From the NCBI GenBank assembly GCA_965219005.1, contig CBDCMS010000003.1, forward strand, positions 706,788 through 770,787: a stretch of DNA of 64,000 nucleotides, read 5' to 3'. The notes beneath the pieces are model-generated. The model worked only from the letters and a program-made list of their open reading frames with translations. It was not told the origin of the DNA and searched no databases. The translations under genes and the position numbers were made by a program. The stretch is from Acidobacteriota bacterium. Its GTDB lineage: Bacteria; Acidobacteriota; UBA6911; RPQK01; JAJDTT01. Below are positions 33,356 through 57,654 of this stretch, piece after piece (the first letter of the stretch is position 1; each line of letters begins with the position of its first letter).

Positions 33356-33400
33356 TCTGTCCTCAATAAAGTGTACACATCATTATTTACAGAGGTGATT

Positions 33401-34957: not shown

Positions 34958-35138
34958 AACCATTGGAAGATCAGGCATCACCCGCGCTCAGAAAAGCGGA
35001 TGAAACGTAAACAGAGGTGAGGCTACAACCAGGCACAAACCGACCTATGAATGCTTCTCCAACCGAGAACGACGGTGGCCGCCGACCCGATTCTCCATGT
35101 CGCCGCGCCTGAGTTGAGAAAGTGAGACCACTGTCATC

Positions 35139-36845
35139 ATGATTCCCAGACACATTCTGCTTACCGCCATTGCAATCGCATGCGCTTCGGCAGTTGGACC
35201 GGTGTCCTATTGCCAAGAACTCTTTTCGCCCAGGCCCGCATCGCGCCCACGGGTTCTCATGGACTACTACCACAAGAAGTTACCGCAATCCAAGGTGGGA
35301 AGGTATCTGTTGACAGGTGGTCGTGCGGATAACGTCGGACGTTATGGATTCAATGATTTTTCTCACACCAACAGTTTTGATGCGCTCTTTTTGATCTTAG
35401 AGAGGGAATTCGCGTTATACGTAAATCGTAAGCCGTTTACGACATCGGGCCTGTCCGAAATAGATATCGTCTTGATAATCAACCCAGAACATCCGGATTT
35501 AGCTCCTGATATCCCCGTCATTTCAGATGCAGAGATCGAGGTATTGAGAGAATTCGTGAAGGAGGGGGGGAGCTTGATGGTAATGATCAACGCTGGGGGC
35601 CGTGGGACGGAAAGATTCGAAGAAGTGCAAACCCGGAAACTGCTGAGGAATTTTGGTTTAGATTGGTATGACAACGATACAAGTTATACGGACATAGCCC
35701 TTGGGCCACAGCATCCCTACTTTTACGATATTGATGTTTTTCACTACGGAGCGGGTTGCACCATCAAGATACTTCCTGATGCCCAAGAAGAAGAGAGAAT
35801 GCTGGAAGTGCACGAAGATGAAGGATCACCAAAAACCAGAGGCCCCGGACTTGTTATGGTGCGACACGGAAAGGGAAAGGTCATGGTAGTTGGGGACACG
35901 GGATCGTGGGGAGCCAATATGGCGCGACCCTGGGCTCAGAATGAAATATTCCTGAAGCAGATGTTCAGGCACCTAAAACGGGATAACGATGTCAAGCCGG
36001 CGGCCTACTTCCCAGGCCAGTCACTACTTTACGATGCCCGGTTTGTGGAGCTGGCAGCGATTCCAGTGAGGAATACGATTAACCAAGTTCGGCATCCAGA
36101 AGCGCGCGTCTTCCAACCCACGCCTAGAACAGAACTACCGTACCTGGAATCTGAAGGGAAACTCCGATTGCGATGTGTCTCAGAAAGCGCGAGTGGTGCC
36201 AGAAAGTTCGAAGCTTGGGTTGATTCATTCGCGCGTTTCGAGGAGACGACCAAGCTCTCACAGACGGAATCGATTAGCTTCGGAGCCAGTCGGCAGGGAA
36301 ACGTCTTTGACGTAGAGGCTCAGGGAAAGTACGCCGCTTGGATGGCTCCCGACATAGGGCACTTGATTGCACTCTTGCCTCATGACGGAATACGTTTGGG
36401 AGATCGTTGGGAGAAAGTGGAACAACTTCGAATTATTCCGATTCAGAGTTCGGATTCTGCGTTGACTCGGCCAGTTGAAACAAAAATGACCTATCTTCGA
36501 GATGAAGTCATTGGAAAGAGACGCTGTCGCCTTATTCGCACGCAAGCGCGGACCTGGCTTGCGGATGCAGGTGTCAGAGTGGAGGATTTACTCCCTCATG
36601 ATTGGGTCCGAAAGTGGAGTGGCTCCAATTTCGAGTTAGTAAAGGGTCGAGGGGGCACCCTTATTTTCAGACGTGAACAATGGGTAGACGCAGAGACTGG
36701 AGTAGTGGTCAAATCCGAAGCAAGAACGGGTATCACTGTTTGGATTCGTGATCTGAGTAAGCCTTTGAGTGTGAGCAACGAGGATAGGGATCAAACGATG
36801 CTGACGACAGTTTCGCATATGGCCATGTTTGAACTGAAACCCTGA
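35139..36845 (+). CDS. Secreted hypothetical protein with a ThuA/class-I glutamine-amidotransferase-like (DUF4350-like) N-terminal region
   Basis: Signal peptide MIPRHILLTAIAIACASAVG. The motif EIEVLREFVKEGGSLMVMINAGG resembles the ThuA/GATase1-like fold. Low GC (about 48%). Confidence 0.4.
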   Translation: MIPRHILLTAIAIACASAVGPVSYCQELFSPRPASRPRVLMDYYHKKLPQSKVGRYLLTGGRADNVGRYGFNDFSHTNSFDALFLILEREFALYVNRKPFTTSGLSEIDIVLIINPEHPDLAPDIPVISDAEIEVLREFVKEGGSLMVMINAGGRGTERFEEVQTRKLLRNFGLDWYDNDTSYTDIALGPQHPYFYDIDVFHYGAGCTIKILPDAQEEERMLEVHEDEGSPKTRGPGLVMVRHGKGKVMVVGDTGSWGANMARPWAQNEIFLKQMFRHLKRDNDVKPAAYFPGQSLLYDARFVELAAIPVRNTINQVRHPEARVFQPTPRTELPYLESEGKLRLRCVSESASGARKFEAWVDSFARFEETTKLSQTESISFGASRQGNVFDVEAQGKYAAWMAPDIGHLIALLPHDGIRLGDRWEKVEQLRIIPIQSSDSALTRPVETKMTYLRDEVIGKRRCRLIRTQARTWLADAGVRVEDLLPHDWVRKWSGSNFELVKGRGGTLIFRREQWVDAETGVVVKSEARTGITVWIRDLSKPLSVSNEDRDQTMLTTVSHMAMFELKP

Positions 36846-36948
36846 CCTTGACGCCTTTGGACCTCTTCTAGAAGTAAGAATCGTTATCTGCTGCTGGCCG
36901 ATCGTGCGTGCTACTTATAAACATCCGGAAAACTTGAGCGGGGTAAAT

Positions 36949-38568
36949 ATGAGAGCCAATACACTCGACACTTGGGTGATAAGTGTGCATAAGCTGACCT
37001 TGCGCGCCAGTCTGCGATTATCTCATGCCAGTAGAGAAGCCGCATTCGTCCTGATTCTATTTGCTTTTTCATTCCTACAGCCGGCGCTATCAGCCCAAGC
37101 GAAGGATTCAGCAGAAAAACCAGCAAACATCCGCGGATTGCTGCATATAGGATCACAACGACAGCTCTTTCTGGATGAATCCATTGTGGAGACAATGGAA
37201 AATACGAAGCGCCGGTTGAACCCAGCTCTAAAGAGCATATCCAATCCTGTCTTGAAGGTAGATAAACCCTGGGAAGGTCCGGACAACCGGATAGATTGGA
37301 TCTTCTACGATCATAGACTGAAGAAATTTCGGCTGAGGTACAAGAGTAGGATCTTCTATGCGAGCGGGAGAGATGAAAAGGGAAACATCATCGTAAGAGG
37401 AGAAGGAGGCAGCGACCCCGTGCTTGTCTGCGAAGCCTTTTCTGAGGACGGTATCGAATGGGAAAAACCTCGATTGGGATTGGCTGAGTTCGAGGGTACT
37501 ACTGCGAATAACATAGTTCCAGATGATAGGCATTGTGCCTTCGCATTTGAAGATCTCCATGATCCTGATCCCAACCGCAGGTACAAAGGGATCAGGTTTT
37601 CCAAGAACGGCGGGCAGTGGTACAGCGATAAACTAACATTCTCATATTATTATTCACCGGATGGGTACAACTGGACAGCATTTGGAGAGAATCCCGTCAA
37701 TAGAGATTGGGGATGGCCCGTCTTGACGGGCTGGGACCCGATCCGGAGGTGCTATGGCGTTCATTTCGAGAATGAACACCACAGGCGCTCAGACTCGCGT
37801 CCTTTCAAAGAAAAGAGAGTCATTGGAAGGGCGGAGAGTCCGGATATGATTCATTGGTCAGGTGCCGAAACAATTATCGTCCCGGACGGTCGCGATTACC
37901 CGGATACAGAATTCTATCAACTCGAGACCTCACATTATGAGGGATGGAGTGTGGGGTTCCTCTGGAATTTTTCCACTACCAACACCACCATACACCCACA
38001 ATTTGTCTTTAGCCGTGATGGTACTCACTATAGCCGTGAGCACAGGGAGCCTGTCATTCGACGGGGAGACAATGGAGATTTTGATTCGGCGGCAATTTAT
38101 GCCAGGCAGCCGATTGTTCATAAGGGAGAGATCTATTGCTTTTACTATGGTACCAACTGGCGCTCGCCGGAGACTCTGGTGGAATTGGGTGAAAAGGCTA
38201 CCTGCGGGATCGGATTGGCGAAGCTCCCCCTGGATGGATTTGTCTCTTTAGAGGGAGCAAGGCGAGGCTACAGTATCGTAACAACGCGGTCGTTTACCTT
38301 TACGGGCGCATCTCTTTATTTGAATATGCGGGCCGCGTTGCAACAATGGGGCGCCGGTCCTTGTGAAGTGAAAGTTGAATTGCTGGATGGCCGTCATGTG
38401 CCTATTGAAGGTTATACATTTGATGATGCGGACAATCTTTCCACTACGAACATAAAGCAACAGGTTACGTGGAATGATGAATCGGATATTACTTCATTGG
38501 CAGGAAGGCCTATTCGATTAAGAATCTTTTTCACAAATGCGAAATTGTACGCGTTTCAGTTTATATAA
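36949..38568 (+). CDS. Family A protein, divergent member ending IRLRIFFTNAKLYAFQFI
   Basis: Hydrophobic AAFVLILFAFSFLQPALSAQA. Motifs SEDGIEW and DGFVSLEGA. Low GC. Confidence 0.75.
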   Translation: MRANTLDTWVISVHKLTLRASLRLSHASREAAFVLILFAFSFLQPALSAQAKDSAEKPANIRGLLHIGSQRQLFLDESIVETMENTKRRLNPALKSISNPVLKVDKPWEGPDNRIDWIFYDHRLKKFRLRYKSRIFYASGRDEKGNIIVRGEGGSDPVLVCEAFSEDGIEWEKPRLGLAEFEGTTANNIVPDDRHCAFAFEDLHDPDPNRRYKGIRFSKNGGQWYSDKLTFSYYYSPDGYNWTAFGENPVNRDWGWPVLTGWDPIRRCYGVHFENEHHRRSDSRPFKEKRVIGRAESPDMIHWSGAETIIVPDGRDYPDTEFYQLETSHYEGWSVGFLWNFSTTNTTIHPQFVFSRDGTHYSREHREPVIRRGDNGDFDSAAIYARQPIVHKGEIYCFYYGTNWRSPETLVELGEKATCGIGLAKLPLDGFVSLEGARRGYSIVTTRSFTFTGASLYLNMRAALQQWGAGPCEVKVELLDGRHVPIEGYTFDDADNLSTTNIKQQVTWNDESDITSLAGRPIRLRIFFTNAKLYAFQFI

Positions 38569-38838
38569 TGCTATTGATGCCTTTCTATGAATCGTTGTGT
38601 TACGTTGCATTTACTGTGTTAGAACGAAACTGCTACGCGCTGGAAGAAGCTGGGTCAAGGCTAAGTGCAAGAGGTTCTCTGAGGTAACCGGCACCCCTGA
38701 ACTTAGTACACTGGAACGAAGGAAGACAGGACGTCATCGACACCAGATGGGAGTGAGCCGCTGGGGATTGGAGATGTAGAGAAAGAGGGACTGGGGACAG
38801 GAAATGCCCGGGCCGCGGAAGCTCTGATCACCCCTGCC

Positions 38839-40050
38839 ATGGACCGTCACAACGGTCGCATCATCATCTTCTCGGCACTCCTGCACTACTTTGCTTCTCC
38901 AGTCATCTACCTAGGCATTGTCCAGGCGGCACTATGCGACCGTCTGGGAGCCAGCGCCACGGTGTCCAACCTGCCCAGCTCGGCCTACCTCCTGGCCGCA
39001 GCGGCTCCCATCTTCCTCTCCTGGCTCGTCCCTCATCGACTAGTGCGAGCTACGGTGGTGGCAGCGTCGTTGGCGACCAGCCTGGTCCTGTGCACGGTCC
39101 TCCTGGTACTGGTTCTCCCCCTCCCTGATCCGGTGCGTTTATGGGCCGTCGTGGCTCAGGGCCTGGCCCAGGGCTTCTCCTCTAACATTGCACACGTCTA
39201 TTCGCATCAGTGTATGAAGCGCGGCACCACTCTCGAGGGTCGAGCCCGGGCCCTGAAGTGGGCTTTTTCCCTGTCTCCCATGGCGGGCGTGGCGGGCTCC
39301 CTCTGGGCTCAGTTCCTTCTGGATGGGGGAATTGGAGGACTCCTCTTTCCCCACGAATTCGCGCTCCTCTACCTGACGGCGATCCCCTGCATGGTGGCCG
39401 TAGCCATCCTCAACAGCCGCTATCAACTGCTGCCCATCCAGGAGGAGAGGCATCCGCCCCTGCTCCCGTACCTCTGGAGGAGTATCCAGTCCTACTGGAG
39501 CGTTCGTCTGCTCCTGCTGGTCTGGTTTGCCTATCTCTTCTGGTATCTGACCATCAATATCATGCCCAACCTCGCTCTCTATGCCCGCGAAGCCCTGGGG
39601 AGAGAGCCGCAAGAGCTGTCGGGTTGGATGATGGCGCTGCGTTTCGGGTTCAAGTGTCTAGGCGGACTCCTATTGGGGGTCATCAGCATCCGCTGGGGGT
39701 TCCGTGCCCCTCTGTTTGCTTGTGTCTTCCTGGTAGGCAGTGCCGTGCTCTGGGCCTGGCTGGTTCCCGGGCACCTCTATTTGCTGGCGTTCGGCATCAT
39801 GGGTGCCGGCGAGCTGGGTGGAGTGTATTTCCCCAATTACGTCATCAGCATCTCTTCGGCATCGGCCGCCACCCGAAACCTGGCCATCCTCTCCCTGGTG
39901 ACCCCGGTGAGCAGTATCGGGCCGGCTCTGCACGGTGGCCTGACCGATCTGCACGGCTTTTCAGCGAGCTTCGCCTTCGGACTGTCAGCCGCGATCCTGG
40001 CCCTGATCCTGCTTCGGCAGCTCTCTTCCAAGCCAGCCCGGGGAAACTGA
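38839..40050 (+). CDS. MFS-type transporter (12-TM-like membrane protein)
   Basis: 403 aa and almost entirely hydrophobic, with two 6-helix halves. Confidence 0.65.
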   Translation: MDRHNGRIIIFSALLHYFASPVIYLGIVQAALCDRLGASATVSNLPSSAYLLAAAAPIFLSWLVPHRLVRATVVAASLATSLVLCTVLLVLVLPLPDPVRLWAVVAQGLAQGFSSNIAHVYSHQCMKRGTTLEGRARALKWAFSLSPMAGVAGSLWAQFLLDGGIGGLLFPHEFALLYLTAIPCMVAVAILNSRYQLLPIQEERHPPLLPYLWRSIQSYWSVRLLLLVWFAYLFWYLTINIMPNLALYAREALGREPQELSGWMMALRFGFKCLGGLLLGVISIRWGFRAPLFACVFLVGSAVLWAWLVPGHLYLLAFGIMGAGELGGVYFPNYVISISSASAATRNLAILSLVTPVSSIGPALHGGLTDLHGFSASFAFGLSAAILALILLRQLSSKPARGN

Positions 40051-40225
40051 AGCCAAGTGTCGTACTACAAGAAATCCGGCTACGGATATTCTGTGAATCG
40101 GCCATCTATGCCATACAGATTGTCTGTACGGCAGAGGCAAGACCAGAGACCAAGAGTACTATTTGAATTGAGTTGGAAATACTTTAAGTAGTCTAATCTC
40201 AGGAGGGGACAGCGTGCCTCATTCC

Positions 40226-41803
40226 CTAGCAGCCTGTCGGACTTTCGAGGTCACACCGAACGGGCATCATTAGTGTATGGCGAATCGATTTAGAACAGTA
40301 GATCGAGAGACTCCTTATCTGTTTCCTCCTTCGGTGCAGGAATGGCTGCCGGAGACGCATCTGGCTCGCTTCGTGGTGGAGGTGGTGAGCAAGCTGGAGT
40401 TGAGGAAGTTGGAGGATTCCTACACGAAACGGGGATCGGAAGGATACCATCCGGCGGTGATGCTGGCGTTGTTGTTTTACGGGTATGCGACGGGGGTGTT
40501 TTCGAGTCGGAAGTTGGAGCAAGCCACCTACGATTCGGTGGCGTTTCGCTACCTCGCCGGCAACACGCATCCGGATCACGACACCATAGCCCATTTCCGA
40601 AAGCGGTTTTTGGAAGAGCTGAAGCCGCTGTTTGTGGAGATCTTGCTGCTGGCCCAGGCGATGGGATTTCTGAAGTTGGGCCGAGTGAGTTTGGATGGCA
40701 CGAAGGTCAAAGCCAATGCCTCCAAGCACAGTGCGTTGAGCTGGGGGCACATCCAGAAACTGGAAGCGCGGCTGCGAGAAGAAGTGGACGAGTTGATGCA
40801 GCTGGCCGAGGAAGCGGATGGACGAGAAGAAACGGAAGGGATGGACATCCCGGCCGAGCTGGCGCGGCGGGAAGCACGGTTGAAAGCGATCGATCAAGCG
40901 AAGCAGAAGCTGGTCGAGCGGGCGGCCGAGCGGCAGGCGGCCGAGCACGCCGAATATGAAGGGAAGGTGGCCAAGCGGCAAGCCCAGAGGAAAAGGGGAA
41001 ACAAACCGAAGGGTCGCGAACCCAAACCGCCCCGAGGAGGAATCCGAGACCAGGATCAGATCAATCTGACGGATGAAGATTCTCGGATCATGCCGGTCTC
41101 GGGCGGGGGATTTGAGCAATGCTACAACGCTCAGGCCCTGGTGGATAACGACAGTCTGTTGATTGTGGCCGTTCATGTCACGCCAAACGCCAATGACAAG
41201 AAAGAACTGAAACCGGCCCTGGCGGCGCTGCACGCATTGCCGGAGTCGTTGGGTCGGCCCCAGGAGCTGCTGGCCGACAACGGCTACTTCAGTGGTGCCA
41301 ACGTGGAGCTTTGTAGCGAGCATGCGGTCCTTCCCTATATTGCGGTCGAGCGGGAAGCCCACCACTTGCCGCCGAACGAACGCTGGAAAGAACCGGAGCC
41401 ACCCGGGGAAGACGCCGATGCGGTGGAGCAGATGAGATACCGGTTGAAGACCCCGGCGGGTCGAGCCATCTACGGGCAACGCAAAGCTGTCCCCGAGCCC
41501 GTCTTTGGGATCATCAAATCGGTGATGGGCTTTGCGCAGTTCTCTCTCCGAGGAGCGGAGGCGGCAGACGGGGAGTGGACTCTGGCCAGCATCGCCTGGA
41601 ATCTGAAAAGAATGTACAACCTCGCCTGCCGCCAGCCGAAGCTGGCCCGTGCCACCCTCTGAAGAGGTGGGCCAGGTCGTTTCAGCGGCCAAATCACCGC
41701 CGCAGATCAGACGATTCATCGATTTCGTGCTTGGTCGTGCAAGACTTTGGATCAAACGTCAAATTTCAGAAGTGCCTGTGAGTCAAGTCCGACAGGCTGC
41801 TAG
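40226..41803 (+). mobile_element. Intact IS1182-family insertion sequence (about 1578 bp) with 19-bp perfect terminal inverted repeats
   Basis: ctagcagcctgtcggactt at 40226..40244 against aagtccgacaggctgctag at 41785..41803. Confidence 0.8.
40277..41662 (+). CDS. IS1182-family transposase
   Basis: N-terminus DRETPYLFPPSVQEWLPETHLARFV...YHPAVMLALLFYGYATGVFSSRKLE. Also DGTKVKANAS and the C-terminal PEPVFGIIK...FSLRG. 461 aa. The 509-aa antisense ORF is judged spurious. Confidence 0.85.
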   Translation: MANRFRTVDRETPYLFPPSVQEWLPETHLARFVVEVVSKLELRKLEDSYTKRGSEGYHPAVMLALLFYGYATGVFSSRKLEQATYDSVAFRYLAGNTHPDHDTIAHFRKRFLEELKPLFVEILLLAQAMGFLKLGRVSLDGTKVKANASKHSALSWGHIQKLEARLREEVDELMQLAEEADGREETEGMDIPAELARREARLKAIDQAKQKLVERAAERQAAEHAEYEGKVAKRQAQRKRGNKPKGREPKPPRGGIRDQDQINLTDEDSRIMPVSGGGFEQCYNAQALVDNDSLLIVAVHVTPNANDKKELKPALAALHALPESLGRPQELLADNGYFSGANVELCSEHAVLPYIAVEREAHHLPPNERWKEPEPPGEDADAVEQMRYRLKTPAGRAIYGQRKAVPEPVFGIIKSVMGFAQFSLRGAEAADGEWTLASIAWNLKRMYNLACRQPKLARATL

Positions 41804-41965
41804 CTGGCGAGAGTATGGATCAGAGTTTGAAGAATACGACAAACTGGTTCCGTATCGGTGCGATTATTGAAAAGAAATAGGGCGTCACAAAAGTGCCGCA
41901 ATTCCCCGTTTGTTTTCGGAGCAGTTCTCACTCGGGGTGGTACAACAATGGGGGGGTGGTCACTG

Positions 41966-43546
41966 ATGAAAGCTCTCTACGTAAGGATTCTGGTTGCGGC
42001 CTGGTGTTTGCTCCCCAGCCCCACACTTGCCGAGGAGACGCCTATCAAGGTCGGCTTCGAGAAGCAGCTGTTTTTAGACGGCTACCTGATCAGCAACATG
42101 GACAACGTGAATCGGGTGTTACATCAACCAAAGAAGCATCCGCAAAACCCGATTCTGCTTCCGGAAAAGCCGTGGGAGGGGCGCTCAATAAACCCTTACC
42201 TGGTGGTCTTCGACCAAAACGAGAAAACCTGGAAACTCTGGTATACCGGTTTTGGAGTCCATAAGAGCCTTCCAGGGCTGGAAGACTTGGAGAAGGTTGT
42301 TGGGCTGCATGGAAGAAAAGGCGCCGTCGTGGTACCCGGACTAGATATCCGCAGCCGCCATGATGGCGACCTTAATGTGTATGCCGAATGCTATGCGATA
42401 TCGAAGGACGGCATCCACTTCGCGAGACCACCCTTGGGCCTGATCGCCTTCCCCGGTTCCCACGAGAAAACGAATCTCGTACCCTACCGGCCTGCTTTCC
42501 GTGACGATCACGATCCCGATCCGCAGAGGAGATTCAAGGCGACCATTGGGACGGGGGACGCGTCGGCTGGCGTGGGGATTGCTTGGTCTCCGGACGGGTT
42601 GCACTGGACGCAACACCCTGACAATCCGGTGATGGACGAGCCGATAGGCGGCGGGATGATCATCTGGGACGATCGGATCAAGAAGTACGTGGGGTATTTC
42701 CGCCCACGTCCTTTTCTTGCTTACCCGCGGCGAGGCCGCATAAGGGTCGTAGGTCGATCAACCAGTCCTGACTTTATCCACTGGACACTACCCCAAGAGA
42801 ATGTAGTATTGGCCCCCGACGAGAAAGACGACCCCGGCATCGAGTTCTACCGGATGTCTGTTCATCAATACGAAGGCTGTTACATAGGATTTCTTTGGAT
42901 TTACCACAACATCACGAGTTCCAGGAATCCAGAACCAAGAGGCTGGGACCAGACAATCGATTGTCAACTTGCCTTCAGCCGGGATGGAAGACATTGGATC
43001 CGGGTATCTGACCGGCAGACCTTTATGCCAAAAGGGCCACCCGGCGGCTGGGACGAACTTGAGGTCTATCCCACCGGAATGATCAATCGCAACAATGAGA
43101 TATGGATTTACTACGGCGGAAGCCTCAGCGGTCATGGGTATCGCTTTTCCGACAGCCGAAGCACTCTCGTCGAGGGGCGCAAAGTCGTCGGCGGTATCGG
43201 GCTGGCCAAGTTGCGCCTAGACGGTTTCGTCTCGATCCGTGCAGGGGAGGAAGAGGGCACGATGACCACCCGAATCATCGAATTCAGTGGTCAGCGAAGG
43301 CTAATCGCAAATGCATCCGCGAAAGGTGGGTACGTCATCGCGGAGGTTCTTGACCGGTTCGGCAAGCCGTTAGCGGGGTACGGGCGCCACGACTGTGTTC
43401 CGCTGGAAGGAGACTTTCTGGAATCTGAGATCGATTGGAAGACAGGAAAATCGCTAACGGGATTAGTGGGAAAGCCAATACGGCTCCGCTTTATTATGAA
43501 AAACGCCGACCTCTATTCGTTTCGCCTTACGAAGTCGATCCGCTGA
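41966..43546 (+). CDS. Family A protein whose 3' end is fused to an IS91-like remnant (ends ...LYSFRLTKSIR)
   Basis: Signal peptide MKALYVRILVAAWCLLPSPTLA. Motifs SKDGIHF and DGFVSIRAG. Confidence 0.75.
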   Translation: MKALYVRILVAAWCLLPSPTLAEETPIKVGFEKQLFLDGYLISNMDNVNRVLHQPKKHPQNPILLPEKPWEGRSINPYLVVFDQNEKTWKLWYTGFGVHKSLPGLEDLEKVVGLHGRKGAVVVPGLDIRSRHDGDLNVYAECYAISKDGIHFARPPLGLIAFPGSHEKTNLVPYRPAFRDDHDPDPQRRFKATIGTGDASAGVGIAWSPDGLHWTQHPDNPVMDEPIGGGMIIWDDRIKKYVGYFRPRPFLAYPRRGRIRVVGRSTSPDFIHWTLPQENVVLAPDEKDDPGIEFYRMSVHQYEGCYIGFLWIYHNITSSRNPEPRGWDQTIDCQLAFSRDGRHWIRVSDRQTFMPKGPPGGWDELEVYPTGMINRNNEIWIYYGGSLSGHGYRFSDSRSTLVEGRKVVGGIGLAKLRLDGFVSIRAGEEEGTMTTRIIEFSGQRRLIANASAKGGYVIAEVLDRFGKPLAGYGRHDCVPLEGDFLESEIDWKTGKSLTGLVGKPIRLRFIMKNADLYSFRLTKSIR

Positions 43547-43820
43547 AGTGCCCCCAATGTGGCGGCGCGATGAAAATCATCAGCTTCATCGAGCGGTGCC
43601 AGCAGGACGTCATCGAGCGGACCCTGCGTCACTGCGGTCTCTGGGAAGGCACGCTGGCCACCGCCCGAGCACCGCCGCCCGCTTGCAAACCACGCCCGGC
43701 CGAACCTAGCGAGCTGGAAGTCGTACTCGACGACGAGTTCTTGGAGTTTCAGCGGCGACAGAAGCAGCGGGCCGCGCCGGGCGAGCTGCAGTTGGTGCTC
43801 GATCCCGAGTTCCTCTAGCC
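43547..43820 (+). pseudogene. Remnant of an IS91/ISCR-like transposase C-terminal zinc-ribbon region
   Basis: EVDPLKCPQCGGAMKIISFIERCQQDVIERTLRHCGLWEG...APPPA. It begins exactly at the family A gene stop. Confidence 0.35.
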
Positions 43821-43888
43821 AGGGGCGTGCCTGGCCAGCGGCTGTTGTCGGCCACCGCCAGCAGCCTGCGCCCGGGGTCCGTGCCGAC

Positions 43889-44467
43889 GTGAGGACCTAC
43901 TACGCTTCCATCGACCACCAGTGCTTGATCGAGCGTCTGGCACGGGTCATCCAGGACCGTCGCGTGCTGAACCTGGTGGAGCAGTATCTGCAGCGGACAG
44001 CCGAGCAGGGTGGACTATTCTGGGAGTCGGAGCGGGGAATTCCACTAGGCTCTTCCCTGAGCCCGATCCTTGGGGCCTTCTTTCTGGCAGAGTTGGACCA
44101 GCGGCTGGAGAGGACGGGGCTGTTCTACGTCCGCTCCATGGATGACATCCTGGTGCTGGCCCCCTCGCGCTGGAAACTGCGTCGGGCGGTGCGAGTCCTG
44201 AACCAGATCCTGTCCTCTCTGAAACTTGAGAAACACCCGGAGAAGACCTTCATCGGTCCGATCGAAAGGGGCTTTGATTTCCTTGGCTGGTTTGCGCTGG
44301 AGGAATCACCCCTGATCTGGGGAGACGAGATCGAGCACACAGTACGCTGGGCACCGAGTCATGCCAAGGCGACTTCAGATAAGCCCCTGGCAAGGATTGA
44401 AGGCAAGCCGGTCCGGCTGCGCTTCGTGATGAAGGGTGCGGATCTGTACTCCCTGAGGTTCAGATAA
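43889..44467 (+). pseudogene. Chimeric ORF: a reverse-transcriptase fragment (group-II-intron-like) fused in frame to the last ~55 residues of a family A protein
   Basis: RT motifs YYASIDH, GIPLGSSLSPILGAFFL, YVRSMDDILV and GFDFLGWF, followed by GDEIEHTVRW...GKPVRLRFVMKGADLYSLRFR. Confidence 0.55.
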
Positions 44468-44481
44468 GAGGAGTCAGAAGT

Positions 44482-46260
44482 CTACCAACCGATTGCGTAC
44501 GATGTAGAGCGCGGGTCGGCGCCGCCTACGCGGACGCCGCTCTCGCGATCGACGGTGATTGCGCACACCCGGCTGACCTCAGAGCTCCAATCTTCGTGAT
44601 CGTCGACAATATGCCCTCGATTTCTCAAAGCCTCGCGTGTCCGCGGGCCAATCCGGGCTTCAACCGTCACCTGGCCGGGCAACGATCCGTGGGGCCAGAA
44701 GGAGTTGGGAAAGCTGTGACTGATGACGCGGGGTGCTTCGATGGCTTCTTGTGGCTCCATCCCGAACTCGATGATGTTGAGGAACACTTGCAGCATTCCT
44801 TGGACCTGTGCATCACCGCCGGGGCAGCCAAAGGGCATGAACGGCTTTCCAGCCTTGAGAACCACCGCCGGGTTCGGCGTGAGGCGCGGACGCTTCCAAG
44901 GACGAAGACAGGAAGGGTGTGCCGGATCAAGCCAAGACTGCGTCCCACGTCCTGAAACGGGAAAGCCCAAGCCGGGGACGACGGGGGACCATCCCACCAC
45001 ATCCGAAGGCGTCGCTGAAAAAGCATTGCCTTCTTCGTCAACTACACACAGATAGCAGGTATCGCTTTCCCAGAGCGATGTGCGTTCCGGCTGCGGACCA
45101 CAGGGATCCACGGTTGGCAGGGCACCCTTTTTGCCACGCGGCTGTGGATGGAATGGCCACGGATTTCCGGGCGGCGGCATGTCGGGGGCGGCGTGCTCCA
45201 GGTCGATTTCGGCACGTCTTTCGGCAGCATATCCTTCCCGAAGCAAGCCCGCCATCGGTACTTGCACAAATTCGGGGTCGCCGAAGTAGGCCTCCCGATC
45301 CGCAAACACCAGCTTGAGTCCCTCGATGATCGTATGCAGATAGTCTGCGGAATGATGGCCCATCTGCTTCAGCTCAACCCCTTCGAGAATCTTCAGCGCC
45401 ATGTTCAAGGTTGGACCCTGACACCAGGGCCCGCAGGTATAAACGTCGTAGCCTTTATAGGTGGCGTGCTCCGGCGCCTCGATCTGCACTGAAAACGTCA
45501 CCAGATCTTCATAGGTCAGCAGCCCACCTTCCCGCCGTTGAAAACCGGCGATTTCGTGGGCAATTTCACCCTTGTAAACCAGGTCTCGCGCCGCCCTGAT
45601 GCCTGCCTTCCGATCGCCGCCTGCCTTGCGCTCGGCCTCGATCATCCTTTTGAAAGTGTTCGCCAGATCTTTCTGGAAAAAGATTTCCCCGATCTGTGGA
45701 ATTTGCCCACCGGGATTGAAGGTTGCGGCGGTTGAAGGCGCAGTTCCGATCCCCCCGCTGACAAACGAATGAAACTGTGCGTCAACGGGGTGACCCTGCT
45801 CGGCCAGATCCAGAGCGGGCTGGATAACCTCCCCAAAGGTCATCGTGCCGAACCGCGCCAACGCGGTCAGCCACGCATCGGGTGATGCCGGGGTGACTGT
45901 CCGCAGAATTCCGGGGGGTAGATCGCCGCCGTGGTGTTGGTGAAAGTAGTCCATGGTGGCGGCTCTGGGCCAACGTCCTACGCCGCTGATCGTTTCGACG
46001 GGGCTGCCCGATGCCGGACAGTAGATAATCGGCGCAACCCCTCCGAAATGGGTGTACCCGGGTTGAAGCACGTTGATGCAGATGCCAGTAGCGACACCAG
46101 CGTCGGCGGCATTGCCACCACTTTCGAGAATGCGAACCCCGCCCATCGTTGCCAGATAATGAAGCGACGAGACAACATAACGCTTCCCTCGTACCGAGGG
46201 GCGATGGCTTCTTGGCATTAGAGTTTCTCTCCTGCGCCTCAAGCGGGTGTAGTGTCCCAC
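44482..46260 (-). CDS. Gamma-glutamyltranspeptidase (GGT) family protein
   Basis: GGNAADAGVATG motif and a nucleophile-Thr region DTCYLCVVDEEGNAFSATPSD. About 590 aa. The likely true start is Met15 (MPRSHRP). Confidence 0.75.
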   Translation of the reverse strand: MGHYTRLRRRRETLMPRSHRPSVRGKRYVVSSLHYLATMGGVRILESGGNAADAGVATGICINVLQPGYTHFGGVAPIIYCPASGSPVETISGVGRWPRAATMDYFHQHHGGDLPPGILRTVTPASPDAWLTALARFGTMTFGEVIQPALDLAEQGHPVDAQFHSFVSGGIGTAPSTAATFNPGGQIPQIGEIFFQKDLANTFKRMIEAERKAGGDRKAGIRAARDLVYKGEIAHEIAGFQRREGGLLTYEDLVTFSVQIEAPEHATYKGYDVYTCGPWCQGPTLNMALKILEGVELKQMGHHSADYLHTIIEGLKLVFADREAYFGDPEFVQVPMAGLLREGYAAERRAEIDLEHAAPDMPPPGNPWPFHPQPRGKKGALPTVDPCGPQPERTSLWESDTCYLCVVDEEGNAFSATPSDVVGWSPVVPGLGFPVSGRGTQSWLDPAHPSCLRPWKRPRLTPNPAVVLKAGKPFMPFGCPGGDAQVQGMLQVFLNIIEFGMEPQEAIEAPRVISHSFPNSFWPHGSLPGQVTVEARIGPRTREALRNRGHIVDDHEDWSSEVSRVCAITVDRESGVRVGGADPRSTSYAIGW

Positions 46261-46559
46261 TACTGTCCGGTTAAAAGCGAAATGATGTCAAGTGATTACG
46301 GATATGACAATGCGAGTTTGCAAGCTCCAGTGCCTAAGTGTCTGAACAATTGGGGTTTCCTTTACCGGCCTCGTGCGGCTTTCGGCGTGCCTGGCCCCAT
46401 AGAGGTCCAGCCTAAGGGCAAGGGAGTTAGTTGCGGCGTCACCTTACCTATAATGGCCCAGATCCAACCGTACAGACAGTGTCAGCGTAGATCGCCGCTG
46501 ATCGGCCGTGTGATAGTCGGCATCCGATCTTACAGACAGCGTCCGATTTGATCGCAATC

Positions 46560-47060
46560 GAACGGCGGCTTCCGCCTGCGATTTCAACCGATCGACGCAA
46601 CACATTGGCTAAATCGTTCGGCTGGTGTTTCGTAGTCTAGGTCGAGTAGGCGGGGTGCTCCCAGTGAGTGGCAAGCCTGTAGGTGGAGGGTTTCCAGCTT
46701 CGCCCTTTCGGTTGCGAAGTGGGTTCACAGTTCCACCATGGACCAGCGGTCTCACCAGTTGCCACCCACGCCCCTCACAGAACCGGACAAGCAGCTTTCC
46801 CGCATCTTATGTGCCGCGGCACACCTAAGATGCGGTAGTTCCGCCTGTCCGGTTCGATGAGGAGGATGTGGAAACGGAGTGATGGTCCGGCTATTGAGGC
46901 ACCGCCAGACGAAAGGGGCGGTAACAGATAGGCCGAACCTTCGACCACCGCGCCACATCCTTACTCTACCGAGGGTGTGTGAAAAGTCCAAAACCTCTTT
47001 GATTTAGGGGTCTCTTTACCCTTCCTACGACGGAGATCGTGGCTTGCACGCGATCCTATG
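46560..47060. other. Structured non-coding region (candidate ncRNA or element remnant) inside a 1.4-kb ORF-free gap
   Basis: Nested stems ggtgga...[cttcgc-cctttcggtt-gcgaag]...tccacc. A long imperfect hairpin runs gaaccggacaagcag...cgcatcttatgtgccgc|ggcacacctaagatgcg...cctgtccggttc. Confidence 0.2.
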
Positions 47061-47708
47061 AAGTCAAAATTTCAAATCCGAAATCATGAATGACTTTTCA
47101 CACACCCTCAGGCGGAAGCAGCCGGTCAGGTGCGATCTATTCTGACGCCGTTTGTACGGTCAGATCTGGGTTATTACAGATCCGCCTGTTGCGCCGCCGC
47201 GTGCCTGTTGCGCCGCTCGAAAAATTTTCAAAAAAGATTTTCTATGGCGTGAGTCTAGCACCTTCCTCCATCCCCTGACCGACCCCCTTTCGACAATCGA
47301 TTCGCCAATCGGGCAAAATCGCGGCGCAACCACTCCACCTATGCAGAAAAGTGGTGATTTTTCGCCGAACTGGCGCTCCGGTCATTTTGGGGTTAAGTGA
47401 TTGATACAACAGGGGATGCGGGAATGGTTACATAACCGCCGTTATACGACGATAATCCCGCTATCTATTTGCAAACAGTGTGCTTATCCTCGGTGACAAT
47501 CCCGAGCGAGTAGGGTATACTGGAAGACACTATCAGGACCTCCCGACTACTGATCATCCCGTCAGACAAGCGTTTCAGCCCGCTCCAGCGTCCAAAAGTG
47601 CGTCTTTTTAGGTTGGAGTGAGTTGGTGGGTGGCTTCATCCTGCCAAACCGCTTGCGCTTTGAGAACAAAGACGCGACTCTGTACTCACCGCGATTTAGA
47701 TTCAGGAG

Positions 47709-49292
47709 TTGGATATGAGGAATGTTGGCTTGAACCGGCGCCGCTTCCTGACCGGGAGCTTGAGCACAGGGGGCTTCGTCTACTGGTCCTGGGCCTGTGT
47801 TTTTCTTTGCTGGTGCTCGACAATGGGTCTCTCGGCCCCCCTCGAGGTGCGCCAGCTGGGAAGCCAGCTTCAACCGCTCTGGGACGATTGGCTGGTCGAA
47901 AGCCTGGACAACGTCCGCCATATCCTCCACAGCCCGAAGCCGGGGGAGATCGTCCTCCGGCGGGATCGTCCCTGGGAGGATCAGGCCATCTACAACCCGG
48001 TGGTCATCAGGGATGGGTATCGCTACCGTATGTGGTACCGCGCCCGGGCGGTGGAGAAACCTATCTACACTGCATACGCCGAGAGTCTGGACGGGATCCA
48101 CTGGGTGAAACCCAATCTGGGCTTCATAGAGCATGACGGATCGAAGGAAAACAACCTTGTGTGGCCGGTGCCGGGAGGCAAGGGCAGGTCCGTTTCCGTC
48201 ATCAAGGACGAGAACCCCCAGGCGGATCCCCAGGAGCGCTACAAGGCCATCACCAACCAGGGGACGACCTTGCCTTCGGGCCGGGACATCGCCCTGCTGT
48301 ACGGGCTGGTTTCCCCGGACGGTCTGCGCTGGCGCATGGTGCAGGAGAAGCCCATCGTCGTTCCTCCTCTGGGGGACGGGGCCTTTGACTCGCACAACAT
48401 CATCTTGTGGGATGGAGCGCGGGGGCACTATTCCATCTATGCCCGGGGCTGGTACCGCAGGGGAAGCCTTCCCCTGGAGGGAAAGCGGGTAGCCAAGGAA
48501 GCGGACCATGTCCTGATGAAGCTACCCTCGGGAAAGATCGAGAAGATCAGCCGGATCCGGGACATTCGGCGCTTCACCTCGAAGGATTTCCGGACCTGGT
48601 CCGAGCCGGAGTACATTGGTCTTGGCGACACGCCACTGGAGCACCTGTACAAGAACTCGGCGGTTCCCTACTATCGACGTCCCGACATTCTCCTTATGTT
48701 TCCCAAACGCTTCCTGCCCACCCGGAAGTTTCATGCCGACTGGCTCCAACCTGGTCTCTCGGACGTGGTCTTCATGTTCAGCCGAGATGGGCTGAACTTC
48801 GACCGGCGCTTCATGGAGGCTTTCCTGCGCCCTGGACCCAATCCCTTGAACTGGCATGAGCGGGCGATCCAGGTAGGCCCCACACTGGTACCCACCGCTC
48901 CAGGAGAGATGTCCCTCTACTATGCCGAGCAGGCCAAGACGACCCAGGTTCGGATCCGCCGGGCCCTGCTGCGTGAAGATGGCTTTGTGTCCCTTCATGC
49001 ACCTTACCAGGGAGGCACACTCCGGACGCGGCCCCTGCAGTTCTCGGGCTCACGTCTGGTTCTCAACTACTCCACCTCGGCGGCCGGGAGTATCCGGGTG
49101 GAGATCCAGGACGCCGACGGAACACCGCTGGAAGGGCATCGCCTGGAAGATTCCCCGGACACCTTCGGGGACGAACTAGAGAGGGAGCTCAGATGGAAGG
49201 GTGGCCCCGATGTGGGCAGACTGGCAGGGAAGCCGGTTCGGCTGCGCTTCGTGATGAAGGATGCGGATCTCTACTCGCTGAGGTTCAGGTAG
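47709..49292 (+). CDS. Family A protein with a twin-arginine (Tat) signal
   Basis: N-terminus MRNVGLNRRRFLTGSLSTGG is Tat-like. Ends KPVRLRFVMKDADLYSLRFR. Confidence 0.8.
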   Translation: MDMRNVGLNRRRFLTGSLSTGGFVYWSWACVFLCWCSTMGLSAPLEVRQLGSQLQPLWDDWLVESLDNVRHILHSPKPGEIVLRRDRPWEDQAIYNPVVIRDGYRYRMWYRARAVEKPIYTAYAESLDGIHWVKPNLGFIEHDGSKENNLVWPVPGGKGRSVSVIKDENPQADPQERYKAITNQGTTLPSGRDIALLYGLVSPDGLRWRMVQEKPIVVPPLGDGAFDSHNIILWDGARGHYSIYARGWYRRGSLPLEGKRVAKEADHVLMKLPSGKIEKISRIRDIRRFTSKDFRTWSEPEYIGLGDTPLEHLYKNSAVPYYRRPDILLMFPKRFLPTRKFHADWLQPGLSDVVFMFSRDGLNFDRRFMEAFLRPGPNPLNWHERAIQVGPTLVPTAPGEMSLYYAEQAKTTQVRIRRALLREDGFVSLHAPYQGGTLRTRPLQFSGSRLVLNYSTSAAGSIRVEIQDADGTPLEGHRLEDSPDTFGDELERELRWKGGPDVGRLAGKPVRLRFVMKDADLYSLRFR

Positions 49293-50168
49293 TGAACACG
49301 GGCGGCTGCGGGCTATTCCCCATTGGTCCGATTCCGGGAGGAGAGAAAGCCTGATTTACTCCCCCAGGGTGTCCTGCCTCACGGAGCGAAACGCCACTTG
49401 GAAGGCCCCACAAGTCGCCTGAGAAGCCCTAGGATCGACGATCCCGCTACAGGCGACCCCGAGGATGCCAATCAAGGATTCTTGGTGCGGCGATTCTCAC
49501 ATGGCCAAGCGAAACCCCCAGACAGACAAGCATGCCGGAATCGCCGTGCCTGCCCATGAGGCCCACCTGGGAATAGACCAGGGTCCCAGTACAAAGTCCC
49601 AGTCGTTGATCAGCCCACAACCCTCTCGTGGACCCCGAAATGCCGTACTTCGACAGATGAGTGGCGTGGAATCGAAGATAACTAACGGTTCGTGAGGTAC
49701 TTGCAACTATCATCGAGGTGAGAGTAGAAGGGCATTACAAGGGGATTCAGGTACCATTAGGAAGCAGAAAGACGAGGATAGCCGAGCAATGCGATGGATT
49801 AGCGGGTGACTATGAGCCAGCGCTAGCGGACCTCCCGAGACCAGCCCATGGGCGGAGGTTATCCCGGGTTTAGAACCAGGATTCTGAAAGTTCTCATTGA
49901 AAATAACGTCTACTTCAAACTTGGAGATGCCAGTGCACCTCGCTGCCGACAGCTCCCAGAAATCTCCTCGCCTGTTCAGCCCGATTCTGTCCCTTAGTGC
50001 CGCCGTATTTCGAGGTAACTCCCTTGTGTCTGGCCCCTATCTGCCTGGTGTCTTTGTCTCTGTCCAGGACGTTAACATCCAATGAATCAGCAACTTGAAT
50101 GCGGACTCCTTGGAACTAATCTTCCATATTTCGGCCCAGCGCAGGCATATTCATGAGGGAAGTTCCTG

Positions 50169-51173
50169 GTGCGCTACGACAACAAGTGGGCCGTCTCCCG
50201 GAACCTGGGACGCCTGACCACCCGTGATGGGGTGAACTGGAAACGAAGCTACATCTGGGCACCCCCACGGAAACACCCCAGACACCAGAGCTACGGCATG
50301 CAGCGGGTGGAGCGGATCGGGGATCTCTACGTCGCCTTCTTCCCTCTCTACGACTGTGCCACCCAACGGATGAACATTCATCTCTGGGTCAGTCGTAACG
50401 GCATCCACTGGGAGGACGTGGGAGGCGACCAAGCCTGGATCCCAAATGGACCTGACAGCAGCTACGATCACGGGATCGTCTACAGCTTTGCAGGCTGGAG
50501 GAGTGACGGAGACCGGTCCATCGGTTTCTATCACGGCACCAACACGCTGCACTTCAACGCCTGGGTCCGGGTGAAGATGGCGGGGACCAGCGAAAGACCC
50601 GGAATTCCCGCCTCCCAGATCTTCGACGATGAGCAGTACAATGGCCGGGCCTACCTCTCGCCTCCAGCGCCCACCCGACCGGGCTGGGCCCTCTACGACT
50701 GCATCTGGAGCTGGCGCCGGCGCACCTGCAGCCAGAGCCTGGAGGAGGCCCGGGAGGCCTTCTGGGCCGAGGTGGAGGCCAACACGGGACAGAATCGATC
50801 CAACCACATCCAGAAGAGCCGGGAGCTCAAGATCGTGCCGGCCCAGGTGGAGTTCCGCACTCTGGGTTTTGCGTCCCGCCGGGCTGGAGAGCGGGAGGGA
50901 GTCCTCACGACCCATCTCCTCCTTTTCCAGGGCAGTAGGTTGACTCTCAATGCGGCCGCCGCCCAGGGTCACCTGAAGGTGGAGGTGCTGGATGCAGGCG
51001 GGCATCCCGTGCCCGGCTACTCCCGGGCGGAGTGCAGCCTTCAGGGATTCGACAGCACCCGACAGGAGGTCAGCTGGCAAGGTCGTTCGGACCTGAAACC
51101 CCTGAGTGGGAAGCCGGTCCGGCTTCGCTTCTATCTTCAGAAGGCCGATCTCTATGGCTTCCAGATCCGATAG
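50169..51173 (+). pseudogene. N-terminally truncated family A gene (334 aa); the first ~200 residues are missing
   Basis: It starts inside the propeller (TRDGVNW) and ends VRLRFYLQKADLYGFQIR. It is preceded by an 870-bp ORF-poor gap. Confidence 0.55.
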
Positions 51174-51200
51174 CCTCGCCGTCTGGTCAGCCAATCGATC

Positions 51201-51941: not shown

Positions 51942-51987
51942 GTTATAGGTTAGGTTATAGGTTAAGCTTAGCTCCGGGAGGACACCC

Positions 51988-52728: not shown

Positions 52729-52900
52729 AGTTTCTTTCGGAGCAAGAGTCAGCTCTGCCGAGCATATCAACATCAGCGTGATCAACAGAGCCGCGCACGG
52801 CTGTCAAAGTCTGCAACATCAGTCCAGTTTCCGAGGAGAGAGCGGTCAACAGCAACATCTTCCAACCACCCGGATGGCACCATCACCACCCTTGAAGAAT

Positions 52901-57651: not shown

Positions 57652-57654
57652 AAG

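What the first reader, a model, noticed from the sequence alone, without database searches (positions are those of the whole stretch)
43547..44467. Composite scar at a family A gene end: IS91/ISCR-like transposase C-terminal remnant, RT fragment and a captured family A tail
The stop region of gene 41966..43546 is replaced in frame by DNA encoding DPLKCPQCGGAMKIISFIE...HCGLWEG, which resembles an IS91-family HUH transposase C-terminus. It is followed by a reverse-transcriptase fragment (YVRSMDDILV...GFDFLGWF) fused to the last 55 residues of another family A protein. A second, independent IS91-like C-terminal remnant (DPLRYPQCGGAFEIIAGIV, 21400..21590) lies exactly where gene 21593..23098 ends and the segmental duplication stops. 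IS91/ISCR elements move by rolling-circle, one-ended transposition and are known to mobilise adjacent genes. Their repeated association with family A 3' ends suggests a mechanism for dispersing and shuffling this family.
Basis: partly seen in the sequence, partly recalled or inferred. Interest (0 to 1): 0.7.

Follow-up and report, generated by a model that had tools for sequence, protein, structure and literature searches.

The report
Dead mobile-element debris behind a gene
The 0.9 kb between two genes is a patchwork of three dead gene fragments (the tail of an IS91-type transposase, the middle of a UG4-class reverse transcriptase, and the tail of a decayed glycosidase-like paralog); it is ordinary genomic debris, not an active gene-shuffling device.

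Summary
The sequence features exist, but the mechanistic reading is mostly unsupported. Window 43528..43888 is an internal piece of an IS91-family element: the last 96 codons of tnpA plus 70 nt of 3' UTR. Intact relatives (Zn_Tnp_IS91 + Y2_Tnp + this zinc-ribbon tail) occur in Planctomycetota and related MAGs. In those, the right end lies 140-345 nt after the stop and ends in CCTATCA. The window copy lacks that end and the left end, so it cannot move.

It is not fused in frame to gene A1. A1 loses about 2-3 native codons and stops 6 codons later, in a different frame.

The RT piece (43878..44288) is a UG4-class RT, not a group II intron RT. It joins the IS91 piece through a ~12-nt microhomology.

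The family A tail (44297..44467) is an old relic. A genome with a 92% identical neighbouring gene has the same tail behind other DNA.

Family A has 13 full or partial copies plus this tail in the window. About 90 IS91 loci elsewhere have no family A neighbour, so the association looks like chance.

One lead remains. Metagenome contigs L082-L084 carry 33 nt of the A1 tail plus the same junction plus a complete IS91 3' end, at 97% identity, in a different context. This fits one-ended transposition or a rearranged orthologous locus.

The parts
41858..43546 (+). Family A gene A1 (GH130/GH32-like beta-propeller family). It is native through ...LYSFR(L). The last 5-6 codons (TKSIR) and the TGA stop are read out of frame from IS91-derived DNA.
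   Evidence: ORF list, sequence, paralog comparison and consensus tail LYSFRFxx, PDB profile hits 7fip 2e-11 and GH32 2e-7.
43495..43527 (+). The last 33 nt of native A1 coding sequence. L082-L084 carry this piece attached to the same IS91 junction, in a different genomic context.
   Evidence: Blastn 43495..43889 vs L082 1885..2279, 97.0% over 395 nt. Sequence. 12 differences listed.
43528..43818 (+). IS91-family tnpA remnant: the last 96 codons (C-terminal zinc-ribbon tail) and its own stop. It corresponds to residues ~443-536 of the L003 open frame. It lies downstream of, and lacks, the Zn_Tnp_IS91 and Y2_Tnp catalytic regions.
   Evidence: Blastn hits from about 80 loci nearly all begin at 43527-43531.
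43819..43888 (+). Proximal 70 nt of the IS91 3' UTR, including the conserved box GGTCCGTGCC (43876..43885). The distal ~240 nt, with the CCTATCA terminus, is missing.
   Evidence: Homology to L007/L061 up to 43888 and to L082 up to 43889. UTR alignment by eye. Termini of multi-copy elements. No terminus motif in the window beyond chance.
43878..43889 (+). Junction J2. This stretch is homologous to both the IS91 UTR (GTCCGTGCCGACG) and the UG4 RT gene (ATCCGAACCGACG in L095), a microhomology-type junction.
   Evidence: IS91 homology ends at 43888/9. RT DNA homology starts at 43878/43884. L095 sequence.
43878..44288 (+). Internal fragment of a UG4-class reverse transcriptase gene (profile positions 119-257 of 307). 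The catalytic box reads SMDD where relatives have FMDD. It lacks the N-terminal third and the C-terminal thumb-like region.
   Evidence: PADLOC RT_UG4 8.5e-58. RVT_1 5.4e-16. 84% nt identity to the L095 RT gene. Relatives listed.
44289..44296 (+). Junction J3. These 8 nt (GGTTTGCG) match neither the RT gene nor the tail shared with L086. They may be filler, or two further family A codons (FA).
   Evidence: RT homology ends at 44288. L086 homology starts at 44297. The family A profile aligns 'FA' weakly.
44297..44467 (+). Tail (56 codons + stop) of a decayed family A paralog, A2, of the 13609/15314/26394/47709 subfamily. It lies 14 nt from the stop of the convergent gamma-glutamyltransferase gene.
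   Evidence: Blastp 57-59% to paralog tails. 91% nt identity of 44401..44466 to 49226..49291. Profile E 2.6e-18. 92% nt identity to L086 from exactly 44297 onward.
21402..21557 (+). Second, older IS91 tnpA C-terminal fragment (...SWARLSPKIHEIDPLRYPQCGGAFEIIAGIV), truncated on both sides. It lies in the intergenic gap between convergent genes.
   Evidence: Tblastn E 1e-4 to 2e-5 with ten reference transposases. Sequence. Only a 47-nt local alignment to the 43528 copy.
2138..2236 (+). IS91 tnpA N-terminal fragment (MPRAGTYRSRHPEHTAFYQCLEDYWEEFQEAYP*). It sits inside a 341-nt insert (1928..2268) that is absent from the paralogous site at 17616|17617.
   Evidence: Tblastn to the N-termini of many full-length tnpA genes at the expected position, E down to 1e-5. 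Sequences.

Best explanation
Window 43528..44467 is inert debris: three internal or terminal fragments of unrelated genes, joined by illegitimate recombination and deletion.

(1) An IS91-family element once lay at the extreme 3' end of family A gene A1. Only 361 nt of it survive: the last 96 tnpA codons plus 70 nt of 3' UTR. Both the terIS side and the oriIS terminus are gone, so it can neither encode a transposase nor serve as a substrate for one. A1 lost about 2-3 codons. It now terminates 6 codons later at a TGA inside the IS91 DNA, read in another frame, and is probably still functional.

(2) The IS91 UTR is joined to the middle of a UG4-class reverse transcriptase gene through a ~12-nt microhomology. 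The RT piece lacks its N- and C-terminal parts and has a mutated catalytic box.

(3) The RT piece is joined to the last 56 codons of a decayed family A paralog (A2). That relic predates the split from a related genome whose neighbouring GGT gene is 92% identical.

Shown: fragment identities, boundaries, absence of element ends, and the shared tail relic.

Inferred: the order of events, and that the joins arose by microhomology-mediated deletion.

The host is probably a Poribacteria-like bacterium, with a dense array of family A paralogs and many IS remnants.
For: Fragment identity:
- 159 homologs of the zinc-ribbon tail, some with PF04986.
- Full-length relatives with Zn_Tnp_IS91 + Y2_Tnp and an HPHIH motif (sequence).
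- RT_UG4 8.5e-58.
- Family A profile 2.6e-18.

Boundaries:
- IS91 homology spans 43528..43888.
- RT homology spans 43878..44288.
- Tail homology runs from 44297.

Missing ends:
- Related elements end 140-345 nt after the stop in CCTATCA, found in about 35 of about 62 loci that have enough downstream DNA.
- The window has no such motif above chance: 4 hits with 2 mismatches, against 3.2 expected.
- tblastn with ten reference transposases found only two C-terminal pieces and a 32-codon N-terminal piece in 64 kb.

Decay:
- 3 synonymous and 3 non-synonymous differences from the L082 copy.
- SMDD in place of FMDD.
- No RNA family hits.

Frames: ORF 43435..43818 and gene 41858..43546 are in different frames.
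Against: - The IS91 ORF piece is still uninterrupted and 97% identical to a copy elsewhere, so it is young debris, not ancient.
- The L082 copy shows that this junction, or the unit carrying it, exists in a second context. That hints at mobility after the junction formed.
- The RT-tail fusion is in frame and gene callers call it as a 167- or 192-aa ORF, so expression cannot be excluded.
- The A2 tail boundary is the same to within 8 nt in two genomes that have different upstream partners. My scenario does not explain this.
Confidence: 0.78

Rival explanations
1. IS91-type elements, supplied with transposase in trans, use one-ended rolling-circle transposition from oriIS to carry adjacent 3' ends of family A genes to new places. 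In this way they shuffle tails among paralogs. The scar would be a footprint of such events.
For: - L082-L084 carry 33 nt of A1 tail, the identical junction J1, the tnpA remnant and a complete 3' UTR ending in AAATCCCTATCATT. They are 97% identical and lie next to a URO-D gene.
- The captured DNA lies on the terIS side. This is the expected side for read-through in IS91, where termination fails in 1-10% of events (PMC13181058).
- 5'-truncated copies with complete 3' ends and variable 5' ends are common: L090, L091, L006, L009, L017 and others.
- A near-intact relative exists in a metagenome (L094).
Against: - The window copy lacks oriIS, and the window holds no intact element.
- In L082 the left flank is itself another junction, apparently to an 11-codon IS110-like N-terminus. 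The rest of that gene does not follow the IS91 end, so L082 is not a clean insertion. It could be a rearranged orthologous locus.
- Only 33 nt were carried, not a functional tail.
- No family A gene lies near about 90 other IS91 loci.
- The A2 tail is joined to an RT fragment, not to IS91, and is an old relic.
- My sample of 5'-truncated copies is biased, because loci were selected with a C-terminal query.
Confidence: 0.13
2. The RT piece is the remnant of a group II intron that invaded the IS91 element or the A2 gene. The scar would then record retrohoming followed by decay.
For: The best NCBIfam hit is TIGR04416, group II intron RT/maturase (1.3e-27). Group II introns often target mobile elements (general knowledge).
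Against: - The TIGR04416 score is 96.9 bits against a cutoff of 300.
- The UG4 profile fits far better: 194 bits for the fragment, and 368-387 bits end to end for full-length relatives.
- Relatives are 328-345 aa with only RVT_1, no maturase or endonuclease domain.
- No group II intron RNA was found in the window or in three loci with full-length relatives.
Confidence: 0.05
3. One of the chimeric ORFs is a functional new gene: either the RT-tail fusion (43889..44467) or the 82-127 aa zinc-ribbon ORF.
For: Both are open. Both are called as genes in several assemblies. Short ORFs of 85 and 105 aa recur among homologs.
Against: - The recurring lengths are explained by conserved internal Met codons of the transposase, MLIKRVYEVDPL... 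and MKIISFIE....
- The substitution pattern looks neutral.
- The RT piece lacks fingers motifs and its catalytic box is altered.
- No known family matches a stand-alone version.
Confidence: 0.03

Closest known systems
IS91 family insertion sequences (IS91, IS801, IS1294; HUH/Y2 rolling-circle transposases) and the related ISCR elements
   Same: - The parent element encodes a protein with Zn_Tnp_IS91 + Y2_Tnp domains and an HUH-like HPHIH motif.
- tnpA is followed by a non-coding right end with a conserved terminus.
- Copies have no obvious inverted repeats.
- 5'-truncated copies and one possible case of co-carried flanking DNA recall one-ended transposition (PMC13181058).
   Different: - The window holds only a 361-nt internal fragment with no catalytic region and no ends.
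- This lineage has a ~95-aa C-terminal zinc-ribbon/acidic tail beyond the Pfam Y2_Tnp model.
- It also has a CCTATCA terminus 140-345 nt after the stop, sometimes tandemly repeated.
- I could not define a target tetranucleotide.
- I did not test ISCR-specific features.
UG4 ('unknown group 4') prokaryotic reverse transcriptases of the UG/Abi collection
   Same: The fragment matches the RT_UG4 profile over positions 119-257 of 307. Full-length relatives match end to end. They are stand-alone RVT_1 proteins of about 340 aa, as described for class 2 UG/Abi RTs without extra domains (PMC9226505).
   Different: Here it is a dead internal fragment. In these Poribacteria-like genomes the family is multi-copy with many truncated copies. 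This echoes the old remark that UG4 is the only non-intron RT with hints of mobility (PMC2602772), but I did not analyse it further.
Pseudogene/IS graveyards in host-associated or IS-rich bacterial genomes
   Same: Juxtaposed fragments of several mobile-element genes and a decayed paralog, microhomology at a junction, and a neutral substitution pattern.
   Different: Nothing substantive; this is the category it belongs to.

Membership tests
IS91 family (parent element of 43528..43888) | Homology to transposases that carry the Y2_Tnp (PF04986) and Zn_Tnp_IS91 (PF14319) domains | tested here: met
   The fragment aligns at 57-68% identity to the C-termini of open frames that carry both domains: L003, L025, L030, L037, L042. 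Pfam itself does not reach the fragment, because the model ends upstream of it.
IS91 family (parent element of 43528..43888) | HUH motif and catalytic tyrosines present in the copy itself | tested here: not met
   The window copy starts at about residue 443 of 536. The HPHIH motif and the RYYGWYS region seen in L003 and L005 lie upstream of that point and are absent from the window.
IS91 family (parent element of 43528..43888) | Functional ends: oriIS at the right end and terIS at the left end | tested here: not met
   Relatives end in CCTATCA 140-345 nt after the stop. The window copy stops 70 nt after the stop codon, and the window has no such motif above chance. The left end is deleted.
IS91 family (parent element of 43528..43888) | Target tetranucleotide next to oriIS and no target-site duplication | tested here: inconclusive
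   The flanks of four copies in one MAG (GAGA, TGGT, CCTC, TATG) show no common tetranucleotide. There are too few clean insertions to judge.
ISCR subgroup | ISCR-type transposase clade, with consistently missing terIS and adjacent captured genes | not tested
   I made no phylogeny against the ISCR1-ISCR27 transposases.
UG4 reverse transcriptases | Best and near full-length match to the RT_UG4 profile | tested here: met
   Fragment: 193.9 bits, E 8.5e-58, positions 119-257 of 307. The next best specific group is UG17, at 97 bits. Relatives P0403, P0404 and P0414 score 368-387 bits over nearly the whole profile (positions 3-5 to 304-306 of 307).
Group II intron RT/maturase | Score above the TIGR04416 cutoff, a maturase (X) domain, and intron RNA domains | tested here: not met
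   96.9 bits against a cutoff of 300. Relatives carry PF00078 only. There are no Rfam hits in the window or in L095-L097.
Family A (GH130/GH32-like paralog family of this genome) | C-terminal tail motif ...GDE(I/L)E..V.W....L..LAGKPVRLRF.MK.ADLYS.RF | tested here: met
   A profile of five paralogs aligns to 44291..44464 with E 2.6e-18. Blastp identity to paralog tails is 46-59%.

The most novel reading that the evidence does not exclude
In Poribacteria/Planctomycetota-type genomes, 5'-truncated IS91 elements that keep their oriIS end may act as non-autonomous one-ended transposition units. Mobilised in trans, they would drag along short pieces of whatever lies on their 5' side. These pieces include gene 3' ends such as the A1 tail seen in L082. 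The process would be a bacterial analogue of LINE 5' truncation and transduction, and could seed chimeric gene ends.
Probability: 0.12. Interest if true: 0.5.

Novelty: new member of a known kind. Interest (0 to 1): 0.22.

Why it matters
As it stands it matters little. It documents how IS decay and microhomology-mediated joins remodel the end of one gene in a paralog-rich, IS-rich genome.

It gives a usable description of a poorly catalogued IS91 lineage of PVC-type bacteria: the C-terminal zinc-ribbon tail and the CCTATCA right terminus.

If the L082 lead proved to be true one-ended transposition of a truncated element, it would be natural evidence for IS91-type capture outside the clinical ISCR context.

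Tried and rejected
- Pfam and NCBIfam on the zinc-ribbon ORF gave nothing useful. Identity had to come from homolog searches.
- tblastn against plasmids gave only weak IS91/Tn3-region hits.
- I searched the window for the right-end motif and the UTR box. Nothing rose beyond chance, or beyond the known site.
- Exact search for junction J1 in JGI metagenomes returned 0 hits.
- Search for A1 orthologs that would show an 'empty site' found no close relative with a 3' end.
- Rfam scans for group II intron RNA found none.
- I considered a DGR (template/variable repeat) reading of the RT plus repeated family A tail. I dropped it because the RT is UG4 and the tail similarity is ordinary paralogy.
- I considered the proximal UTR hairpin as an ori-like structure. 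Its folding energy is no better than that of shuffles (z = 0.38).
- I tested whether L086 keeps more of A2 upstream of the shared tail. No family A signal was found there.
- I tested whether the 523-aa neighbour of the L091 remnant is family A. It is not detectable as such.

Full report
OBSERVATION

Gene A1 (41858 or 41966..43546, + strand) ends ...GKPIRLRFIMKNADLYSFRLTKSIR*. Other family A genes end LYSLRFR*, LYSIRFRP* or LFSFWIE*, and the family consensus ends LYSFRF plus two residues. A1 is therefore native up to ...FR(L).

A1 is not fused to it. A1 simply runs 5-6 codons into the foreign DNA and meets a TGA. 'Replaced in frame' is therefore wrong.

IDENTITY OF THE FIRST FRAGMENT

- Pfam and NCBIfam do not recognise the ORF.
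- The large protein search found 159 homologs, all 221 aa or shorter. Many come from Planctomycetota, and about 15 carry PF04986 (Y2_Tnp) on the part upstream of the match.
- The recurring lengths of 85 and 105 aa come from conserved internal Met codons (MKIISFIE..., MLIKRVYEVDPL...), not from a stand-alone gene.
- A genome scan gave 80 loci. Several have open frames of about 500 aa with Zn_Tnp_IS91 + Y2_Tnp followed by this tail. These frames contain an HPHIH motif and RYYGWYS.
- The fragment is therefore the C-terminal extension of an IS91-family transposase.

BOUNDARIES OF THE IS91 PIECE

- Blastn of the window against the loci starts at 43527-43531 in almost every case. This fixes junction J1 at 43527|43528.
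- Homology to L007/L061 and to L082 continues past the stop codon (43816..43818) to 43888/43889.

WHERE THE ELEMENT NORMALLY ENDS

- Multi-copy elements in single MAGs (L006/L056/L041, L052/L053, L020/L033) share homology up to about 220-320 nt after the stop. Where the sequences were examined (L006/L056/L041), that homology ends in ...AAATTCCTATCAG.
- The 7-mer CCTATCA occurs 140-345 nt after the stop in about 35 of about 62 loci that have enough downstream DNA. These loci span relatives with 34-80% protein identity.
- L007, L049, L082 and L094 have the motif tandemly repeated.
- The window has no such motif above chance.
- tblastn with ten reference transposases finds only two other IS91 pieces in 64 kb. 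One is a degraded C-terminal piece at about 21402..21557. The other is a 32-codon N-terminal piece at 2138..2236.
- The window therefore has no intact element, and no copy with either functional end.

THE RT FRAGMENT

- RVT_1 scores 5e-16 and TIGR04416 scores 97 bits, far below its cutoff of 300.
- The PADLOC RT_UG4 profile fits much better (194 bits, positions 119-257 of 307).
- Full-length relatives are 328-345 aa and contain RVT_1 only. They match RT_UG4 end to end at 1e-111 to 1e-116.
- No group II intron RNA is detectable in the window or in three loci with full-length relatives.
- UG4 is an uncharacterised RT group with no defence enrichment (PMC9226505). It is the only non-intron RT for which multi-copy hints of mobility were noted (PMC2602772).
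- The catalytic box reads SMDD where relatives have FMDD.

JUNCTIONS J2 AND J3

- DNA homology to RT genes starts at 43878-43884. It therefore overlaps the IS91 homology, which runs to 43888/9.
- The IS91 UTR reads GTCCGTGCCGACG and the L095 RT gene reads ATCCGAACCGACG. J2 is a microhomology junction.
- RT homology ends at 44288. Then come 8 nt of unclear origin, and the family A tail runs from 44297.

THE FAMILY A TAIL

- It belongs to the 13609/15314/26394/47709 subfamily.
- L086 is a related genome whose neighbouring GGT is 92% identical. It is homologous to the window from exactly 44297 through the GGT gene.
- Upstream of that point L086 has an ATG plus 16 signal-peptide-like codons, then a DUF5655 fragment, then a different family A paralog.
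- The tail is therefore a relic of a decayed paralog sitting in place. It was not freshly captured by the IS91 or RT element.
- Two genomes share this boundary to within 8 nt while having different upstream partners. I cannot explain this.

IS THE ASSOCIATION WITH FAMILY A MEANINGFUL?

- The window contains 12 full-length family A genes, one truncated copy (29448..30344) and this tail. That is 13 of about 43 long ORFs. Two of three IS91 remnants lying next to a family A 3' end is unremarkable (roughly p = 0.2, my estimate).
- None of the about 90 other IS91 loci fetched has a family A homolog within the up to ±6 kb of flank held per locus.

THE ONE LEAD IN FAVOUR OF MOBILISATION

- Cluster members of the window's own 82-aa ORF led to contigs L082-L084.
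- These carry window 43495..43889 at 97% identity, next to a URO-D gene. That stretch is 33 nt of A1 tail, the identical J1, and the tnpA remnant.
- In L082 the complete 3' UTR follows, ending in AAATCCCTATCATTAAATCCCTATCATT. L083 matches the L082 UTR at 100% through that terminus. L084 ends 24 nt after the stop codon.
- The carried DNA is on the terIS side. That is the side expected if rolling-circle transfer starts at oriIS and runs past a missing terIS, as in IS91 one-ended transposition (PMC13181058).
- However, the left flank in L082 is itself a junction to what looks like an 11-codon IS110-type N-terminus (my recollection of that motif). The remainder of that gene does not follow the IS91 end. 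L082 may equally be the orthologous locus after other rearrangements. With the data available, both readings need the same number of events.
- Close relatives L090 and L091 are 5'-truncated at other points (about residues 420 and 429), with complete 3' ends, in unrelated contexts. This fits premature termination or later 5' deletion. My sample was selected with a C-terminal query, so it cannot show that 5' truncation is favoured.

DECAY

The window and L082 copies differ at 12 of 395 positions: 3 synonymous, 3 non-synonymous, 4 in the UTR and 2 in the A1 piece. This looks neutral.

VERDICT

- It is made of an IS91-family C-terminal/UTR fragment, a UG4 RT fragment and an old family A tail relic.
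- The pieces were joined by illegitimate, partly microhomology-mediated recombination.
- None of it can move or encode an enzyme now.
- The idea that IS91 elements disperse family A is not supported, except for the ambiguous L082 unit.
- Host: probably Poribacteria-like (named GGT relatives at 78-81% identity).
- Family A is a distant GH130/GH32-like beta-propeller family.

Noticed in passing
window 1928..2268 (IS91 N-terminal ORF 2138..2236), compared with 17511..17617: A 341-nt insert carrying the first 32 codons of an IS91 tnpA sits exactly at the left edge of copy 1 of the 3.76-kb duplication. Copy 2 has the uninterrupted 'empty' sequence (...ggcagt|cctgcgg...).
   Followed up: partly
window 2269..6023 = 17617..21371; also 1819..1927 ~ 17511..17616: The duplicated segment holds two genes, neither of them family A. 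It is 99.9% identical, yet the 108 nt just to its left are only 92% identical. This suggests an older duplication whose core was recently homogenised by gene conversion, with the tract limited on the left by the IS91 insert. Its right end lies 31 nt before the second IS91 C-terminal fragment.
   Followed up: partly
window 44297 and L086 (reverse complement ~6756..6974): The A2 tail begins at the same nucleotide, to within 8 nt, in two genomes whose neighbouring GGT genes are 92% identical. It is preceded by an RT fragment in one genome and by ATG plus 16 signal-peptide-like codons in the other. The 9 nt at the right side of J2 (GTGAGGACC) resemble the L086 start (ATGAGGACA). Unexplained.
   Followed up: partly
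proteins P0394-P0402, P0428; loci L095, L096/L097: UG4-class RT genes are multi-copy in these Poribacteria-like genomes. At least ten distinct relatives share 81-87% identity with the window fragment, and many are truncated. One (P0396) is on the same 3.02-Mb contig as the window. L096 has two copies 3.9 kb apart at 92% identity. This bears on the old question of whether UG4 RTs are retromobile (PMC2602772).
   Followed up: partly
loci L007 (~1900..2000), L049, L082 (2497..2527), L094: The IS91 right-terminal motif (GGAATTCCTATCAG / AAATCCCTATCATT) is tandemly repeated two or three times in several elements. This may reflect repeated insertion or termination at the same end.
   Followed up: no
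L082 1823..1884: Upstream of the A1-tail/IS91 unit there is a further terminus-like motif (AACTTTCACTATCAG). It is followed by an ORF start MRKYFVGLDVH that looks like an IS110-family transposase N-terminus fused to the family A tail codons.
   Followed up: no
window 13609..62476 (12 full-length genes plus truncated copy 29448..30344): There is a very dense array of family A paralogs at 24-88% identity, including near-tandem and inverted pairs. Examples: 24874..26310 vs 31840..33279 at 87% (inverted); 13736..15222 vs 15507..17017 at 91%; 29438..30280 vs 33391..34233 at 91%. The family is distantly GH130/GH32-like (7fip 2e-11).
   Followed up: partly
window 40277..41662 (+), with a 509-aa antisense ORF 40226..41755: An apparently intact IS1182-family transposase gene (NF033551, 1.3e-110) lies directly upstream of A1. 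The metagenome contig L001 breaks inside A1, presumably because of this repeat.
   Followed up: no
window 57001..59000: G+C rises to 0.66-0.69 with strong positive GC skew (0.19-0.26), well above the window average of about 0.57. Overlapping ORFs lie at 57894..59212.
   Followed up: no
window 3..1604 (+) vs 7424..9070 (-): Another inverted paralog pair (85% protein identity, 84% nt), unrelated to family A.
   Followed up: no
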